From sequence record PV419677.1: a stretch of DNA of 64,000 bases; one strand, 5' to 3'. Source of the stretch: a phage. The translations under genes and the position numbers were made by a program. The notes below the pieces were generated by a model, which was given only the letters and a program-made list of their open reading frames with translations, was not told the origin of the DNA and made no database searches. Position 1 is the stretch's first letter; each line of letters begins with the position of its first letter. This document shows positions 1 through 28,746 of the stretch, piece by piece.

Positions 1-115
1 CTTCTTTATCAGCAAAGAATTTCGGGTCCAAGTCACAGTCATGGAAGTACCATTCATCACCGAACTTGTCCCACGCGGTCCAATTAGTAGCTACATATTC
101 TTCAAAACGTTTCAT
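1..115 (-). CDS. hypothetical protein, N-terminal part (gene runs off window start)
   Basis: ATG at 115..113 overlaps the stop of the upstream ORF; reads MKRFEEYVATNWTAWDKFGDEWYFHDCDLDPKFFADKE to position 1. Confidence 0.4.
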   Translation of the reverse strand, partial: MKRFEEYVATNWTAWDKFGDEWYFHDCDLDPKFFADKE

Positions 116-21560: not shown

Positions 21561-22541
21561 TTATTTTTCGAAAGGACGAATTAAATGTTGGTTAGCCTTG
21601 AAACGTTTAACATAGTCTTCGTGACCCAGGGTGTTGTACATATTAACCACTTCCTGGTAATGTTCCCAGGCATACTCGCGGAACCATCCAGAAGTAATGG
21701 AGGTACAGACTTTTTCTAGTGCAATATGGAAGCTCACGGATGGAGAAATATTGAACTCATTAGGAACCTGCGAACGCTCCAGAGCAAGTACACATGCTTC
21801 TTCATAAACCCCAGCCAGTTTAATAATCTCAGGGAGTGCTTCAAATTTTTCACGCGAGGTCATAACTTCTGAATTATCCTTCATATAGAACTTATATGCA
21901 GGCTTATCAGCAAGCGCCACGGCCTCGTGGATGGAGTCATGGTCAAGGGTATAGATTGTATCATTAAAGAAAGCTTTCTTATCCACGTCTAGTTTAGGGT
22001 GGCTATATGACAATGTTTCTGCCTGGCGCTGCAGCATGATTTTATGCAGTTCGTCATTAAGAACAACCCCCTTATTGCGAAGGTAATTAATATGACTCAT
22101 GGTCTTCAGGAAGAATGGATTGTTCTTCAGGTAACGATGAGACAATTTAATTGCCAGACAAATATCAGGAGTCGCCCAATAGAAACCAGATAGACGGTCT
22201 TTCTGAATATTTGCCTTCGCATATTTGAGTAAACGATAACTGGAGGTAAAATCTTCCTCTTGTAGCTCATCAGTCAGCTCACGAACACTTGTCAATGCGC
22301 GGACGATGTACGCTTCAAAATAGGTTTCTTTACCATTGTGCATACATTTAAAAGCTTGAACATCTGGGTTATCCACATGCACATGTTGTCCCATCATCTG
22401 GGTTTTAAAGCTATTCCAGGAGCCCTGGTCAGCGATAAAGTCCCAATCAGAGTTTTCAATTTTCTGACTTTCAATCAGACCAGCGTTATGTAATGCACGA
22501 GAACCAATAACTAACATCATAATATTTTCCTCAAATAACAC
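21561..22541 (-). CDS. hypothetical protein, possible nucleotidyltransferase-like N-terminus
   Basis: VIGSRALHNAGLIESQKIENSDWDFIA (GS..DxD-like, atypical spacing). Confidence 0.5.
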   Translation of the reverse strand: MLFEENIMMLVIGSRALHNAGLIESQKIENSDWDFIADQGSWNSFKTQMMGQHVHVDNPDVQAFKCMHNGKETYFEAYIVRALTSVRELTDELQEEDFTSSYRLLKYAKANIQKDRLSGFYWATPDICLAIKLSHRYLKNNPFFLKTMSHINYLRNKGVVLNDELHKIMLQRQAETLSYSHPKLDVDKKAFFNDTIYTLDHDSIHEAVALADKPAYKFYMKDNSEVMTSREKFEALPEIIKLAGVYEEACVLALERSQVPNEFNISPSVSFHIALEKVCTSITSGWFREYAWEHYQEVVNMYNTLGHEDYVKRFKANQHLIRPFEK

Positions 22542-22772
22542 TTAAATTTCAGCAGCAGAGATATTAGATTCATCTATCATCTCAGAGGCGGACCCCTTAA
22601 CGATAGGAACCAATTTGCCATAGAGGTCTTCATTGTAAGGGTCGTTGATACAGTGTGCATCTTCAAAACAAACACCGTAATCAGACTTCTTATAAACGAG
22701 ACCGTAAATCTTTGTAAACTTAGCACGACTAATTTTTACAGGCTCATCAGTCATTGGGGCGTAATACCACAT
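22542..22772 (-). CDS. hypothetical protein
   Basis: ORF track, 76 aa. Confidence 0.5.
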   Translation of the reverse strand: MWYYAPMTDEPVKISRAKFTKIYGLVYKKSDYGVCFEDAHCINDPYNEDLYGKLVPIVKGSASEMIDESNISAAEI

Positions 22773-22875: not shown

Positions 22876-23103
22876 TTATTTTCCCAACGAAATACGAGTA
22901 GGTTTTTTGCCAAAATATTCTTCATAAGAACCATCTAAACGACCTGCTTTAGACCGACAATATGAATCATACTTTTTATAATAGGTCAACTCGGTATTAT
23001 AACGTGGGTGTCTATCAGCCATAATAATACTTAACGGCCAACCTTTGGCATAATCGCGAAGACCATTTATTTTACGAATGTATCTTTTCTTTAATTTTAG
23101 CAT
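22876..23103 (-). CDS. small basic protein
   Basis: ORF track, 75 aa. Confidence 0.45.
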   Translation of the reverse strand: MLKLKKRYIRKINGLRDYAKGWPLSIIMADRHPRYNTELTYYKKYDSYCRSKAGRLDGSYEEYFGKKPTRISLGK

Positions 23104-23321
23104 GAGCTCGGGTACCAGATTTTACCATCGGAGCGAGCAACGAAGGTACGACCAGCTTCTTCACCATAACAAGAGCTATTCAGCCAATCTTCAAGACGAA
23201 CTTCACCGTCGTAATCATCTAGCTCAACACCAAAATCTTGAGCGTTAGCCATATCTTTTACTTTCTTATACAGCGCAGCCAGTTCAAGAGCTGCTTTTTC
23301 CAATTCATTAATATTAGACAT
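23097..23321 (-). CDS. small acidic protein, W-x-S-S-C tail family, member 1
   Basis: 74 aa; ends GKIWYPSSC. Confidence 0.6.
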   Translation of the reverse strand: MSNINELEKAALELAALYKKVKDMANAQDFGVELDDYDGEVRLEDWLNSSCYGEEAGRTFVARSDGKIWYPSSC

Positions 23322-23330
23322 TTTTATTCC

Positions 23331-23561
23331 TTAGCAAGACATAGAGGAGTTAAACCAGAAACCCTGGCCATCATTGATGCCATAATCACTGCGAATCCAG
23401 TCATATTCTTCATATTCTTCGCTAGAAGCCGGAATATAACGTTGGAAACGGTCTGCGGCGTGTAAATTAAAAATTTCACCGGTTTTATCGGCTAACTGCT
23501 CACCTTCACAGATTAGTGCACGGATTTGGTCTTCAATTTCTTTAACAGTTTTAGTAGTCAT
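23331..23561 (-). CDS. small acidic protein, W-x-S-S-C tail family, member 2
   Basis: 76 aa; ends GFWFNSSMSC. Confidence 0.6.
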   Translation of the reverse strand: MTTKTVKEIEDQIRALICEGEQLADKTGEIFNLHAADRFQRYIPASSEEYEEYDWIRSDYGINDGQGFWFNSSMSC

Positions 23562-23570
23562 TTTATAACC

Positions 23571-23768
23571 TTAGCATTCATAAGAGGAGGACACCCAAGA
23601 GGTACCGCTAATAGTAATACAACCATTATAAAGCGTAATATGTTGTTCCAGATTACGCTGACCGTCAATATAGATATCAGCTTCTTCGCGTTCTTCTTTG
23701 CAAATCTGGATAACGTTTTCAATAGCTGCCGCGGCAGTACGGATTGCACAATCTAATTCACGAGACAT
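23571..23768 (-). CDS. small acidic protein, W-x-S-S-C tail family, member 3
   Basis: from MSRELD; ends TSWVSSSYEC. Confidence 0.6.
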   Translation of the reverse strand: MSRELDCAIRTAAAAIENVIQICKEEREEADIYIDGQRNLEQHITLYNGCITISGTSWVSSSYEC

Positions 23769-23776
23769 ATAATTCC

Positions 23777-24058
23777 TTAACATTCAGAAGAGGAGGACAC
23801 CCAACCGCCATTTTCTAGGTCGGTTGTGTAGTCATGAGTATTAACAATAGCCCATTCAGGATGACCATCTTCTTCCCAATGAGCAAGGTCAGCTTTCAAG
23901 GCGCCAGGAGAATAATAGTCACCGCCCATACCGCGAGCAGGGTATATATTAAAATGAGTCTCATATTTGTCTGCAATTTCCTCAGCACGGCGAATGGCTT
24001 CATGGATTTCTTTTACTGCGGCCAGAAGCTCTGGTTGGTTATGGTTATCATTCATCAT
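23777..24058 (-). CDS. small acidic protein, W-x-S-S-C tail family, member 4
   Basis: from MMNDNH; ends GGWVSSSSEC. Confidence 0.6.
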   Translation of the reverse strand: MMNDNHNQPELLAAVKEIHEAIRRAEEIADKYETHFNIYPARGMGGDYYSPGALKADLAHWEEDGHPEWAIVNTHDYTTDLENGGWVSSSSEC

Positions 24059-24059
24059 A

Positions 24060-24350
24060 TTAGCACACCTCAGAAGAGGAAACCCATGCACCAACAGTAA
24101 CAACACCGTTTTCAACTCGCCCGCCGTTGTTTTCAATATGGTGAGCAAACCATTCAGAACATTCATAACCAACTGGATGATATGTACGGCCGGTGCCATA
24201 ATCGCCAGTGCTGAATTCAATACCGTACTTGTCGGCAATTTCTTCACATTTGGATTCGATGGTGTCTACTTTACTCAACAGGTCATAGATGGCTTTTTCT
24301 GCAGATTTCTCGTCGGTGTATCCAGGGATTTCAATTTCAATTTTATTCAT
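24060..24350 (-). CDS. small acidic protein, W-x-S-S-C tail family, member 5
   Basis: 96 aa; ends GAWVSSSEVC. Confidence 0.6.
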   Translation of the reverse strand: MNKIEIEIPGYTDEKSAEKAIYDLLSKVDTIESKCEEIADKYGIEFSTGDYGTGRTYHPVGYECSEWFAHHIENNGGRVENGVVTVGAWVSSSEVC

Positions 24351-24700
24351 GATTTACATTCCTTAATAAAGGTTTCAAGGTCATTACGTTTTGTTTTGTC
24401 TAGGAACTTATTATACTCAGCCATTGCCAAAGCGTATCTCTTCCGGCTAGGAGCATTCACGGCGTTTGTATGACAGATATCATACACAACAGGGATAAAA
24501 TAAGCCACAACAGCCGGAGCGATTATCATAAAGAACCCCATCTCAATAGGCATGACTCCCTCGATTGCAGCCATAACCGTGGTCATTACCAGACCAACCA
24601 AACCACCGAGCATGGCGGTGACAATTCCCAATAATAAATTGCCGCCAATATCATATTCAGCCAATTGATAAACATGTGATGCAAGACTAGGCCGTTCCAT
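24347..24700 (-). CDS. membrane protein with FIKECKS tail
   Basis: from MERPSL; two hydrophobic helices. Confidence 0.5.
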   Translation of the reverse strand: MERPSLASHVYQLAEYDIGGNLLLGIVTAMLGGLVGLVMTTVMAAIEGVMPIEMGFFMIIAPAVVAYFIPVVYDICHTNAVNAPSRKRYALAMAEYNKFLDKTKRNDLETFIKECKS

Positions 24701-25082
24701 TACGAACCTCCTTAATAAATTCTTCGGCACATTTAATTTTGTGCTCTTCTTGTAGGGAAACACATTTTTGTTCCCACTCTTTAACTCGCCCACGATATCC
24801 TTTATTCATATGATTTTGATGCCACGCATTTATCAATATCATACTCAGGACCGTAATAAAAGGAGCTGCGATTATTAGCGCCCAGGCAACTCCAACACTA
24901 ATGATATCCATATCCCCACAAAGCACCATCATTATAACCCCAACGATGCACATGGACAAAGCTCCAAATGGAGGCATAAGGTCTTTATCAATCTTGTCTG
25001 CGTATACAAATTTTTCTGGTTTACTTGGCAGATATAACGTTCGCATTTTGAACCCCTTTAGCATATTCACGACATTCAGCAA
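24687..25082 (-). CDS. membrane protein with EEFIKEV tail
   Basis: hydrophobic helices; start uncertain (25082 or 25046). Confidence 0.45.
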   Translation of the reverse strand: MLNVVNMLKGFKMRTLYLPSKPEKFVYADKIDKDLMPPFGALSMCIVGVIMMVLCGDMDIISVGVAWALIIAAPFITVLSMILINAWHQNHMNKGYRGRVKEWEQKCVSLQEEHKIKCAEEFIKEVRNGTA

Positions 25083-25593
25083 TAAAACGATTAAGCTTAC
25101 GTTTCCGTTTACGACTCTCTAATGTATACTCAGCCGCCAAATCAAGAAGCTCATCTTTATCATAATTTTTAATATCAGTATAAGCTGGGCGGCGGTCAAC
25201 CATTCCAAATACATCGCCATTCTCTAGCGCCACATAACATACTAAATGGTAATCATCATCGGCCACATTAAGAAGTACGCAATCGTTGCTCTCGTTTAAA
25301 GCATACACTGAATAACGTAGTCCAGCGAATTCTGCTTGTTGGATACTCAGATTTACATCAATAATTTCCAAGGCATCTGCAAAAGAAAGGTCTTCAGCTA
25401 AAGCAAAAATAAAAGGCAATTTTGTAGTATCGCCGCGGCTAGTTGTTCTTCTTAAGAAATCATTGGAATAACCCAGGTCACCACGGATTCTATAAAGAAC
25501 TGTGTTAGTTTCAGTGGCAAGACCGCTCCCACCAAACCAATCTACATTTGATATAAGGTCAGTATATAAGCTCATAATATTCTCCTCTCCCAA
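25021..25593 (-). CDS. hypothetical protein with NRFIAECRE near C-terminus
   Basis: ORF track, 190 aa. Confidence 0.55.
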   Translation of the reverse strand: MGEENIMSLYTDLISNVDWFGGSGLATETNTVLYRIRGDLGYSNDFLRRTTSRGDTTKLPFIFALAEDLSFADALEIIDVNLSIQQAEFAGLRYSVYALNESNDCVLLNVADDDYHLVCYVALENGDVFGMVDRRPAYTDIKNYDKDELLDLAAEYTLESRKRKRKLNRFIAECREYAKGVQNANVISAK

Positions 25594-25617
25594 TTAGGGG
25601 GCAAAGCCCCCTTTATC

Positions 25618-26211
25618 TTACTTAAGTGAATTGATGTATTCTTCAATGTCAGCGGACGTGGTATCCACACCAACCTGTGGGCCTTTGAAGGTTTCAACAC
25701 GCATCAGGGTGTCTTCAATATCAATCTTAGTCAATGCAGCGATTTCAACAACATCATCTGCAGTCGCAATACCCAGGGCAGATACCTTACGGGTTTCGCG
25801 GATGTATTCCAGTTTAACAGCTAGTTCCTGACGAGAATCATCCAGCTCTTTAACTTTCAATTTAATTTCATTACGCATTTCAACATAATCATCGGCCTTC
25901 TTACGAAGTTGTTTAGCAGTGCGGCGATACAGGAGACCCAGTTTAGCATGGACCTGGACATCCGCACCATCAGCAATCAGTTTGCGGATTTCACGCTCTT
26001 TTGAAGCGGCGAGTTGGTCTTTTTCATCGGCCAACGCACGAATGCGTTTTTCTTCATTAACAGACTTAACGTGGGCGGTCTGGAGCTCAGTAATCTTGTC
26101 AATCAGGGTAGAAGCCGCTTGAGTATATTGGTCTTCAATAGACAGGTTTTTTGCCATTGCAGTACCCAGTTTGGAGCGGATGAATTCAACAAGTTTCTTT
26201 AAAGTATTCAT
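25618..26211 (-). CDS. coiled-coil protein (tentatively PspA/IM30-like)
   Basis: 197 aa, heptad-rich charged sequence; similarity to PspA is only an impression. Confidence 0.5.
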
Positions 26212-28589: not shown

Positions 28590-28664
28590 TGGTATCCCGC
28601 CCTGGGATCGAACCAGGACCGCAAACTTAGAAGGATCGTATGCTATCCATTACACCAGCGGGAC
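28590..28664 (-). tRNA. tRNA-Arg (anticodon UCU)
   Basis: 75 nt hand-folded cloverleaf: acceptor GTCCCGC/GCGGGAT, T-arm CCTGG-TTCGATC-CCAGG, anticodon loop CTTCTAA, encoded CCA. Confidence 0.7.
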
Positions 28665-28669
28665 ATAGT

Positions 28670-28746
28670 TGGTGACCCAGACCAGATTTGAACTGGTAAC
28701 CTTTCCCTTATGAGGGGACTGCTGCTAACCATTGAGCTACAGGGCC
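28670..28746 (-). tRNA. tRNA with CAU anticodon (Met or Ile2-type)
   Basis: 77 nt: T-arm ACCAG-TTCAAAT-CTGGT, anticodon loop CTCATAA, encoded CCA; D-arm pairing imperfect in my hand fold. Confidence 0.6.

What the first reader, a model, noticed from the sequence alone, without database searches (positions are those of the whole stretch)
23097..24350. Tandem array of five small acidic paralogs with a conserved Trp-Ser-rich tail ending in Cys
Five consecutive minus-strand genes of 65-96 aa end in GKIWYPSSC, GFWFNSSMSC, TSWVSSSYEC, GGWVSSSSEC and GAWVSSSEVC, each followed directly by the stop codon. The codons encoding the tail differ between copies (TCC TCC TCT versus AAC TCC TCT versus CCG AGC TCA), so the conservation is at the protein level, not a DNA repeat. 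The N-terminal bodies are divergent and strongly acidic. A diversifying family of small acidic proteins in a phage accessory region is the pattern expected for DNA mimics or anti-defence effectors, and the invariant C-terminal Cys suggests a shared modification, metal site or partner-docking tail. I do not recognise this family.
Basis: seen in the sequence. Interest (0 to 1): 0.8.

Follow-up and report, generated by a model that had tools for sequence, protein, structure and literature searches.

The report
Cys-tailed small phage proteins with partner enzyme
Five neighbouring genes of a T4-like phage encode small acidic proteins that all end in the same Trp-Ser-Ser-Cys motif; they belong to a large, unstudied phage family that almost always sits just upstream of one conserved enzyme-like gene, which points to an undescribed two-part phage system.

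Summary
Five consecutive minus-strand genes (96, 93, 65, 76 and 74 aa; pI 4.3-4.6) each end in W-x(4-6)-C directly before the stop codon, and no other ORF in the 64 kb window does.

The window is a Gaprivervirus, a T4-like phage. The motif is conserved in orthologues and in about 75 distant protein clusters from T4-like, Phapecoctavirus, Otagovirus and jumbo phages. It was not found in a scan of cellular genomes.

No Pfam, NCBIfam, PADLOC or PDB match exists. The high-confidence AlphaFold model (pLDDT 90) has no significant fold neighbour. I found no paper on the family.

The main new result is a conserved gene linkage. In 74 of 80 loci retrieved with the ~310-aa DUF7277-DUF7275 protein (window 21561-22520), one to six tail-bearing genes lie upstream on the same strand. 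Of those upstream ORFs, 224 of 1195 carry the tail, against 5 of 2508 other ORFs. No other gene family is shared beyond 32 loci.

My best reading (confidence about 0.4) is that the small proteins are partners or substrates of this enzyme-like protein. The constant tail would be what it recognises or modifies, and the variable bodies would address different host targets.

The DNA-mimic and anti-defence idea is untested. Published phiR1-RT data show three family members are non-toxic in E. coli and were not among the proteins identified in virions.

The parts
24060..24350 (-). Member A (96 aa, ..GAWVSSSEVC*). It has the 'DYGTGRTYHP' variant of the hairpin motif. Its start overlaps the stop of the upstream membrane-protein gene (ATGA).
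   Evidence: phrog_899, E 2e-21; orthologues in many genera
23777..24058 (-). Member B (93 aa, ..GGWVSSSSEC*). This is the canonical type, with the 'RGMGGDYYSP' hairpin motif. It was the sequence modelled with AlphaFold.
   Evidence: phrog_899; tblastn finds it in 282 phage records; AF2 pLDDT 90.1
23571..23768 (-). Member C (65 aa, ..TSWVSSSYEC*). The body is divergent and is filed in a separate PHROG.
   Evidence: phrog_4882, E 3e-36; body not detectably homologous to A/B/D without the tail
23331..23561 (-). Member D (76 aa, ..GFWFNSSMSC*).
   Evidence: phrog_899; homologous to A and B without the tail. Absent from phage RZ, so copy number varies.
23097..23321 (-). Member E (74 aa). It has two copies of the motif, an internal DWLNSSC and a terminal IWYPSSC, and both are conserved across genera.
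21561..22520 (-). Conserved partner gene: the DUF7277 + DUF7275 protein (about 319 aa from the MMLVIGS start; the ORF extends to 22541 from a GTG). The N-terminal motif IGSRA..x17..DWDF plus E76 looks like a nucleotidyltransferase. The C-terminal domain has invariant K/H/R, H-D, H, EE and ER residues.
   Evidence: Pfam PF23942 and PF23940; found next to tail genes in distant loci; invariant residues
22542..23103 (-). Two small intervening genes (22542-22772, 76 aa; 22876-23103, 75 aa, basic) between the array and the partner gene. They are lineage-specific insertions, not conserved parts of the module.
   Evidence: absent from or different in other loci
24347..25046 (-). Two upstream e.3/e.4-like predicted membrane-protein genes (about 24347-24700 and 24687-25046). 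They are co-oriented with the array and overlap it. This is context in T4-like phages only, not in the other lineages.

Best explanation
The five genes encode members of a large, phage-restricted family of small acidic alpha/beta proteins. The family is defined by an invariant C-terminal signature of Trp, a Ser three residues later (usually Ser-Ser-Ser), and Cys as the last residue.

They form a two-part module with the gene downstream, a ~310-aa DUF7277-DUF7275 protein that looks like an enzyme with two conserved polar sites. One site is an N-terminal nucleotidyltransferase-like G-S...D-x-D...E. The other is a C-terminal His/Asp/Glu/Lys cluster.

Most likely the small proteins are interchangeable protein partners of that enzyme, acting as substrates or specificity adaptors. 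The constant W-SS-C end would be the element the enzyme binds and probably modifies covalently, for example by nucleotidylylation of the invariant Ser hydroxyl or by chemistry on the terminal thiol. The divergent bodies would give each paralog a different host target during early infection, in host takeover or counter-defence.

Shown: the family, its motif, its restriction to phages and the gene linkage. Inferred: that the linkage reflects physical or enzymatic interaction, the nucleotidyltransferase chemistry, and the host-directed role.
For: Motif conservation:
- W, S and C are invariant in 81 diverse sequences.
- In 240 family proteins, 235 end exactly at Cys. Ser at +3 is 100% and Ser at +4 is 94% in the main class.

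Linkage found independently of the motif:
- 80 loci were fetched with the enzyme alone. In 74 of them, 1-6 tail genes lie upstream on the same strand.
- 224 of 1195 upstream same-strand ORFs carry the tail, against 5 of 2508 other ORFs.
- The tail family is the only gene family shared by more than 32 of the 80 loci.

The linkage holds in unrelated genomic contexts and phage lineages:
- L038 and L039, with gaps of 8-18 nt
- an Erwinia jumbo phage
- Phapecoctavirus ESCO13 and Otagovirus M5.1
- Yersinia phiR1-RT, g126-g128 upstream of g125

Other points:
- Several paralogs to one enzyme fits substrates or adaptors better than a 1:1 inhibitor.
- Short paralogs keep the tail but lose the rest of the body (L023, L033).
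- The enzyme's GS..DxD..E and H/HD/H/EE/ER residues are invariant even in actinophage homologues.
- Two GenBank records call it a nucleotidyltransferase.
Against: - No interaction or modification has been shown, and no multimer prediction was possible.
- Six of 80 enzyme loci, plus the Stenotrophomonas, Streptomyces and Gordonia phage homologues, have no tail gene nearby. The enzyme can therefore work without them.
- The median gap between the last tail gene and the enzyme is 340 nt. In this window two unrelated genes intervene.
- AlphaFold puts W and the first Ser inside a beta-strand, so their conservation could be structural rather than a recognition site.
Confidence: 0.4

Rival explanations
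1. The small proteins are stand-alone host-takeover or anti-defence effectors, either DNA or protein mimics or active-site plugs. Each one binds a host protein by itself, with the terminal Cys (thiol plus carboxylate) or the whole W-SS-C end acting as the warhead. The enzyme next door is merely co-inherited and co-expressed.
For: - The proteins are small, acidic and diversifying, and copy number varies between related phages.
- They sit in an accessory region that T4 lacks entirely.
- They are early-region, co-oriented genes with overlapping stop and ribosome-binding sequences.
- The enzyme exists without them in some phages.
Against: - The linkage to the enzyme survives across at least four unrelated phage lineages and different neighbourhoods, which is hard to explain by synteny alone.
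- No fold similarity to known DNA mimics or anti-defence proteins was found, and there was no PADLOC-related hit.
- Three members are non-toxic in E. coli (PMC6893735 supplement). This argues against inhibition of an essential host function but not against anti-defence.
Confidence: 0.25
2. The small proteins are regulators of the enzyme, either antitoxin-like inhibitors or activators. They would keep a potentially harmful nucleotidyltransferase-like activity in check or switch it on at the right time.
For: - The upstream-small-gene, downstream-enzyme order resembles type II/IV toxin-antitoxin pairs.
Against: - One to six different paralogs per single enzyme is not the usual 1:1 arrangement.
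- The enzyme occurs intact without them.
Confidence: 0.12
3. The module is RiPP-like. The proteins would be precursors whose C-terminal octapeptide is matured by the enzyme, for example by Ser activation and elimination followed by Cys addition to give a lanthionine-like ring, or by a Trp-Cys crosslink. It might then be released as a small peptide or cofactor.
For: - Several tandem small genes sit directly upstream of one conserved enzyme.
- The C-terminal core is rich in Ser and Cys, with Ser N-terminal to Cys.
- Gly is enriched just before the Trp: 56% at -2 and 38% at -1.
Against: - No known RiPP enzyme family, protease or exporter is nearby.
- The 'core' is conserved while the 'leader' varies, the reverse of the prochlorosin type.
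- AlphaFold places the start of the 'core' inside the folded domain.
- The W-x4-C class has Ser adjacent to Cys.
Confidence: 0.08
4. The proteins are virion or assembly proteins, as a few GenBank records annotate them ('tail completion protein').
For: Annotation in phages UPEC07, IME540 and ABTNLsp5.
Against: - No Pfam or PHROG support exists for that name.
- The same records give neighbouring small genes equally implausible names ('major capsid protein'), and other records call the enzyme a 'prohead assembly scaffold protein'.
- phiR1-RT g126-g128 were not among the 78 proteins identified in virion proteomics; they were kept in the non-structural screen set (PMC6893735).
- Copy number varies, and the genes lie in the early region.
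Confidence: 0.02

Closest known systems
PII signal protein with GlnD (uridylyltransferase/uridylyl-removing enzyme), or other small proteins nucleotidylylated by Pol-beta-type transferases. From established knowledge; not tested here.
   Same: - A small alpha/beta protein is paired with an enzyme that appears to combine an N-terminal nucleotidyltransferase-like motif with a second His/Asp-rich domain.
- A hydroxyl residue (Ser, or the near-invariant Tyr of the hairpin) is invariant in the small protein.
   Different: - There is no sequence or fold similarity to PII.
- The enzyme matches no NTase or HD profile.
- There are many paralogous small proteins per enzyme.
- The system is phage-encoded.
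- No modification has been shown.
Nif11/NHLP-type RiPP precursors processed by one enzyme (prochlorosins ProcA/ProcM). From established knowledge.
   Same: - Several tandem precursor-sized genes (65-100 aa) sit next to a single conserved enzyme.
- The functional residues (Ser, Cys) are at the extreme C-terminus, after a Gly-rich junction.
   Different: - Here the C-terminal segment is conserved and the N-terminal body varies.
- No LanM-, LanB- or YcaO-type enzyme, protease or exporter is present.
- The body is predicted to be a compact fold that includes the start of the motif.
Small acidic phage anti-restriction or DNA-mimic proteins (T7 Ocr, T4 Arn, ArdA). From established knowledge.
   Same: Size, strong negative charge, location in the early or accessory region, and rapid diversification.
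   Different: - No structural match was found.
- Those proteins have no invariant C-terminal Trp-Ser-Cys signature and no obligatory enzyme neighbour.
Nucleotidyltransferase toxin-antitoxin pairs (MenAT, AbiE, MNT-HEPN). From established knowledge.
   Same: A small protein gene lies upstream of an NTase-like gene, and the model shows weak topological resemblance to Phd/YefM antitoxins.
   Different: - The ratio is 1-6 small genes to one enzyme.
- No DUF1814 or HEPN match was found.
- The module is found in lytic phages only and not in a scan of 100,044 cellular genomes.
PHROG families phrog_899 and phrog_4882 (unknown function)
   Same: A, B, D and E match phrog_899 and C matches phrog_4882, with E-values from 4e-10 to 3e-36. 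The family is therefore already catalogued as a sequence cluster.
   Different: The PHROGs carry no function. They split the family in two, and they do not record the tail motif or the link to DUF7277/DUF7275.

Membership tests
phrog_899 / phrog_4882 (uncharacterised phage protein clusters) | Significant HMM match to the family profile | tested here: met
   A 2.1e-21, B 1.4e-19, D 5.9e-15 and E 4.1e-10 to phrog_899; C 2.9e-36 to phrog_4882
W-SS-C tail family (as defined here) | Small (45-145 aa) acidic protein ending in W-x(4-7)-C, with Ser at W+3 and Cys as the last or second-to-last residue | tested here: met
   All five window proteins. The motif is invariant in 81 diverse homologues. 235 of 240 proteins end at Cys.
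W-SS-C tail family (as defined here) | Encoded upstream of, and co-oriented with, a DUF7277-DUF7275 gene | tested here: met
   In the window the array lies 23097-24350 and the enzyme 21561-22520, on the same strand. The arrangement holds in 74 of 80 enzyme-anchored loci.
DNA-mimic proteins (Ocr/Arn/ArdA type) | Strong net negative charge | tested here: met
   pI 4.3-4.6, net charge -6 to -12. This feature is not specific.
DNA-mimic proteins (Ocr/Arn/ArdA type) | Fold or charge pattern resembling a known DNA mimic, or binding to DNA-binding enzymes | tested here: not met
   [not shown]
RiPP precursor peptides | Adjacent recognised maturation enzyme (LanB/M/KC, YcaO, radical SAM and similar), protease or exporter | tested here: not met
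   The neighbours have only DUF or unknown PHROG matches. No other conserved neighbour exists.
RiPP precursor peptides | Post-translational modification and release of the C-terminal core | not testable with these tools
   This needs mass spectrometry.
Type II/IV toxin-antitoxin (Phd/YefM-like antitoxin with NTase toxin) | Significant structural or sequence similarity of the small protein to an antitoxin family | tested here: not met
   [not shown]
Pol-beta-type nucleotidyltransferase (partner protein) | hG[GS]-x(9-17)-D-h-[DE]-h motif plus a third carboxylate | tested here: met
   IGSRA..DWDF and E76. G13, S14, D32 and D34 are invariant in 30 homologues and in actinophage versions. This is read by eye against the published motif.
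Pol-beta-type nucleotidyltransferase (partner protein) | Statistically significant profile or structure match to a known NTase | tested here: not met
   No NTase Pfam hit in 30 members at E<=5. No PDB hit with the full or N-terminal-domain profile.
Virion 'tail completion protein' (GenBank label) | Similarity to a tail-completion family, or presence in virions | tested here: not met
   No such Pfam or PHROG match. The phiR1-RT homologues were not among the proteins identified in the virion proteome (PMC6893735).

The most novel reading that the evidence does not exclude
A previously unrecognised phage protein-modification system. A single conserved two-site enzyme (DUF7277-DUF7275, nucleotidyltransferase-like plus a His/Asp domain) would covalently modify the invariant Ser/Cys C-terminus of a diversifying set of small effector proteins. 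This would either arm them or mature their ends into a peptide-derived warhead or cofactor. The result would be a modular toolkit of one enzyme and many effectors, shared by T4-like, Phapecoctavirus, Otagovirus and jumbo phages of Proteobacteria.
Probability: 0.3. Interest if true: 0.85.

Novelty: categorically new. Interest (0 to 1): 0.72.

Why it matters
The module is present in hundreds of sequenced lytic phages, including many therapeutic candidates and BASEL collection phages. The B-type protein occurs in 282 phage records and the enzyme in 732. It is missing from T4's e.2-e.3 junction, where related phages carry it, which probably explains why it was never studied.

If the small proteins are substrates or adaptors of the enzyme, this would be a new kind of phage-encoded post-translational system and a new source of host-directed effectors.

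Even if they act alone, an invariant Trp-Ser-Ser-Cys carboxy-terminus on an apparently new small fold is a well-defined and easily mutated handle. It can be used to find the host or defence targets that these phages neutralise.

Tried and rejected
Searches with the five proteins that found no informative match:
- Pfam, NCBIfam and PADLOC scans.
- PDB sequence search with the family profile.
- The first AlphaFold run, with 21 close sequences, was useless (pLDDT 49). Only the 81-sequence alignment gave a confident model.

Spurious hits:
- The long hits in the exhaustive HMMER search (HAMP-repeat histidine kinases, e.g. P0070 and P0081) match only the N-terminal helix. I rejected them as spurious.
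- The genome-contig scan gave only chance matches.

The partner enzyme:
- PDB searches with the sequence and with two profiles, a Pfam scan of 30 members, and hhalign against Cca and KNTase all failed to support an NTase or HD assignment.
- I considered a shared zinc or disulfide 'clasp' between the tail Cys and enzyme Cys250/Cys279. Cys250 is Tyr in two homologues that have tail genes, and Cys279 is also kept in homologues without tail genes.
I used a DNA pattern instead.

Literature:
- Searches for phrog_899, DUF7275/7277, RB69 ORF names and the motif strings returned nothing relevant.
- The 'sulfurtransferase' label on an e.4-like neighbour in phage JK36 has no Pfam support in the window homologue.
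Full report
**Observation**

The region 23097-24350 holds five consecutive minus-strand ORFs of 96, 93, 65, 76 and 74 aa. I call them A to E, in order of transcription. They end in GAWVSSSEVC, GGWVSSSSEC, TSWVSSSYEC, GFWFNSSMSC and GKIWYPSSC, each followed directly by TAA.

- All five are acidic, with pI 4.34-4.59 and net charge -6 to -12.
- A six-frame scan of the whole 64 kb window finds such ORF ends only at these five places.
- Each stop codon overlaps the ribosome-binding site of the next gene (TGC TAA GGA ... ATG). The first gene's start overlaps the stop of the upstream membrane-protein gene, so the array looks like one translationally coupled unit.
The exception is B and C, which share 28 of 30 nt across the tail, stop and ribosome-binding site.
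- Protein E carries the motif twice: DWLNSSC internally and IWYPSSC at the end.

**Where the window comes from**

The window is a T4-like phage of the genus Gaprivervirus. It is 100% identical to Shigella phage fPSFA over the query, 95% to UPEC07 and TH55, and 88% to SP18.

The array lies between the e.3/e.4-like membrane-protein genes and the e.2/nudE/e block. In T4 itself, e.2 abuts e.3 and the whole insert is missing. That probably explains the lack of experimental history.

**The family**

- Pfam, NCBIfam and PADLOC give nothing.
- PHROGs place A, B, D and E in phrog_899 and C in phrog_4882, both of unknown function.
- tblastn with B finds 282 phage records in Gaprivervirus, Dhakavirus, Mosigvirus, Klebsiella, Enterobacter, Citrobacter and Serratia phages, plus an Erwinia jumbo phage.
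- Orthologues keep the tail, and arrays of 2-5 members occupy the same slot.
- An exhaustive HMMER search of 1.84 billion representatives gave 89 hits at E<=1e-3. About 75 of them are 72-144-aa proteins with the same layout.

That shared layout has four parts:
- a long N-terminal helix (..EAE-IADE-G-h-x-F-x-F);
- a hairpin motif, YGMGGxYYP or YGSGRTYYP;
- an acidic, Trp-rich linker of variable length;
- the ending G-x-W-h-S-S-S-x-x-C.

The remaining hits are HAMP-repeat kinases that match only the helix. I regard them as spurious.

Conservation of the tail:
- In an alignment of 81 diverse members, only W, one S and C are invariant.
- Among 240 family proteins collected from loci, 70% have W-x6-C and 25% have W-x4-C.
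- Ser at W+3 is universal, though the collecting pattern partly enforces this. Ser at W+4 is 94% in the main class.
- 235 of 240 end exactly at Cys.
- 39 of 240 carry a second, internal motif.
- Some loci carry 45-49-aa paralogs that keep only the linker and tail.

Profile-profile comparison shows A, B and D are homologous even without the tail (about 98%). C and E are not detectably homologous once the tail is removed. 'Five paralogs' is therefore safe for three members and plausible for the other two.

The family appears to be phage-restricted. A tail-coding DNA pattern gave mostly true members in viral contigs, where 30 stretches matched. In 100,044 bacterial and archaeal genomes it gave only chance, out-of-frame matches, none of them next to the partner gene.

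**Structure**

With a shallow alignment AlphaFold failed (pLDDT 49). With the 81-sequence alignment, protein B is modelled at mean pLDDT 90.1 and pTM 0.78:
- helix 9-32
- strands 35-38 and 46-49, flanking the GMGG loop
- helices 51-64 and 71-74
- strand 84-88 (G-G-W-V-S)
- a terminal turn at 89-92

Residues 81-90 average pLDDT 92, and only the last three drop to 67. So the Trp and the first Ser residues belong to the fold. The 'tail' is better described as a conserved C-terminal strand and turn that presents the Cys.

- Foldseek against the PDB gives nothing.
- BFVD returns only uncharacterised family members.

The fold has no significant known neighbour in the libraries available.

**The main new finding: a conserved partner gene**

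I looked up two distant members and found each immediately followed (gaps of 18 and 8 nt) by a gene with Pfam DUF7277 + DUF7275. The same two domains make up the 326-codon ORF at window 21561-22541, about 550 bp downstream of the array. tblastn found this protein in 27 of the 39 loci fetched up to that point.

I then reversed the test. Using only the enzyme alignment, I fetched 80 viral loci with 4 kb flanks and scanned them for tail-ending ORFs.
- 74 of 80 have 1-6 such ORFs upstream on the same strand.
- 224 of 1195 upstream same-strand ORFs carry the tail, against 5 of 2508 other ORFs.
- Clustering all ORFs showed that the tail family is the only neighbour shared by more than 32 loci. The largest tail cluster alone covers 70 loci.
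- The nearest tail gene ends a median of 340 nt before the enzyme start. In 22 of 68 loci the gap is 100 nt or less.

The pairing recurs in unrelated lineages and neighbourhoods:
- E. coli Phapecoctavirus ESCO13, with three tail genes directly upstream
- Pseudomonas Otagovirus M5.1
- jumbo phages of 355-371 kb
- Aeromonas and Acinetobacter T4-likes
- Yersinia phiR1-RT, g126-g128 upstream of g125

Exceptions exist. CC31, one small clade, and the Stenotrophomonas, Streptomyces and Gordonia phage homologues have the enzyme but no tail gene nearby.

**What the partner is**

It is strongly conserved, with 58 invariant columns in 30 sequences of 45-75% identity.
- The N-terminal domain has h-h-G-S-x-A, then 13-17 residues, then D-x-D-[FY]-[IL], and a later invariant Glu. 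This is the pattern of Pol-beta-type nucleotidyltransferases.
- The C-terminal domain has invariant K132/H135/R136, E175, H181-P182, D200-H201-D202-x2-H205, E247-E248 and E255-R256.
- Most of these residues persist in actinophage homologues.
- Two GenBank records label it '(putative) nucleotidyltransferase'.

Every statistical test I could run failed to confirm this. There was no NTase or HD Pfam hit in 30 members. There was no PDB hit with the sequence or with two profiles. The enzyme nature is therefore an inference from motif conservation.

**Published data**

No paper mentions the family, the DUFs, or the RB69 ORFs.

One screen does include it unknowingly. In the phiR1-RT toxicity screen (PMC6893735), g126, g127 and g128 are a C-type, an A-type and an E-type member; I confirmed this by translation.
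- They were retained as non-structural unknowns after virion LC-MS/MS.
- They gave relative CFU of 0.94, 0.69 and about 1.0, above the toxicity cut-off of 0.4.
- These members are therefore not toxic to E. coli and were not among the proteins identified in virions.

The GenBank labels are evident annotation-transfer errors. They include 'tail completion protein' for these genes, 'major capsid protein' for neighbouring small genes, and 'prohead assembly scaffold protein' for the enzyme.

**Interpretation**

Shown:
- a large, phage-only family of small acidic proteins with an invariant Trp/Ser/Cys C-terminus;
- an apparently new fold;
- variable copy number;
- a tight, directional, cross-lineage linkage to one conserved enzyme-like protein.

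Inferred: the linkage reflects a functional partnership.

I favour (about 0.4) the view that the small proteins are substrates or specificity adaptors of the enzyme, with the constant end as the recognised or modified element and the variable bodies addressing different host factors. Three observations fit this better than a 1:1 inhibitor: the many-to-one gene ratio, the retention of the tail in truncated paralogs, and the second copy of the motif in E-type proteins.

Rivals:
- stand-alone effectors, co-inherited with the enzyme (0.25);
- regulators of the enzyme (0.12);
- RiPP-like precursors (0.08);
- structural proteins (0.02).

I considered a shared metal or disulfide site between the tail Cys and the enzyme's cysteines and did not find support for it.

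The suggestion of a shared modification or docking tail is the part that the genomic evidence favours.

**Novelty**

The family is catalogued only as two unknown-function PHROGs, and the partner only as two DUFs. Neither the motif nor the linkage appears in any source I could search. By sequence, fold and literature it lies outside every known system I could test, so I rate it as categorically new. The caveat is that the mechanism remains hypothetical.

Noticed in passing
window 23322-23330, 23562-23570, 23769-23776, 24059: Each tail gene's TAA stop overlaps the next gene's ribosome-binding site (TGC TAA GGA/GGT ... ATG). Gene A's ATG overlaps the stop of the upstream membrane-protein gene (ATGA at 24347-24350). 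The array looks translationally coupled.
   Followed up: partly
window 23569-23598 vs 23775-23804: The 30 nt that encode the tail, stop and next ribosome-binding site are 93% identical between genes C and B, while the other copies are 63-70% identical. This may reflect local gene conversion or joint constraint from the tail and the ribosome-binding site.
   Followed up: no
P0053 = RB69ORF139c (Escherichia phage RB69): In the reference phage RB69 the A-type member is truncated to 71 aa and lacks the W-SS-C end. Close relatives have the 101-aa form. This is a natural tail-less variant that could be used as a control.
   Followed up: partly
L023 9138-9287; L033 704-841: Short paralogs of 45-49 aa next to full-length members keep only the linker helix and the tail (..WDSSWDDSSC, ..WTSWEGSSC). 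They have lost the N-terminal helix and the YGMGG hairpin.
   Followed up: partly
GenBank records MW250787 (UPEC07), MT150133, MW149274, MK295203, and Klebsiella phage VAC36: The tail genes are labelled 'tail completion protein', neighbouring small genes 'major capsid protein', and the DUF7277/7275 gene 'prohead assembly scaffold protein'. These look like shifted or erroneous annotation transfers.
   Followed up: partly
window 25596-25612: A GC-rich hairpin (AGGGGGCAAAGCCCCCT) lies in the 24-nt gap between the e.6-like gene (25618-26211) and the 190-aa gene (25021-25593). It may be a terminator or an RNA-stabilising element at the head of the transcription unit that contains the array.
   Followed up: no
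window 28590-28746: Two tRNA genes (Arg-tct, Met-cat) lie about 4 kb upstream of the array. The partner enzyme also sits near tRNA clusters or RNA ligase genes in several unrelated phages: Gordonia BrutonGaster, Streptomyces Blueeyedbeauty, L039 and Stenotrophomonas Ps15. This may be a coincidence or a hint of an RNA-related role for the enzyme.
   Followed up: no
window 22876-23103: A 75-aa basic ORF (phrog_7065, unknown function) and a 76-aa ORF (22542-22772, phrog_3723) are inserted between the array and the enzyme in this lineage. Many other phages lack them.
   Followed up: partly
L003 5624-6240 (Erwinia phage Kaldavass); L122 543-1286 (ESCO13): A NinI-like Ser/Thr phosphatase gene lies within a few kb of the module in two unrelated phages. 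It was not seen in most loci, so this is probably a coincidence.
   Followed up: no
PMC6893735 (phiR1-RT Gp136, Gp137): Two adjacent small membrane proteins of phiR1-RT are toxic to E. coli. I did not establish whether they correspond to the e.3/e.4-like membrane proteins that flank the array in this window.
   Followed up: no
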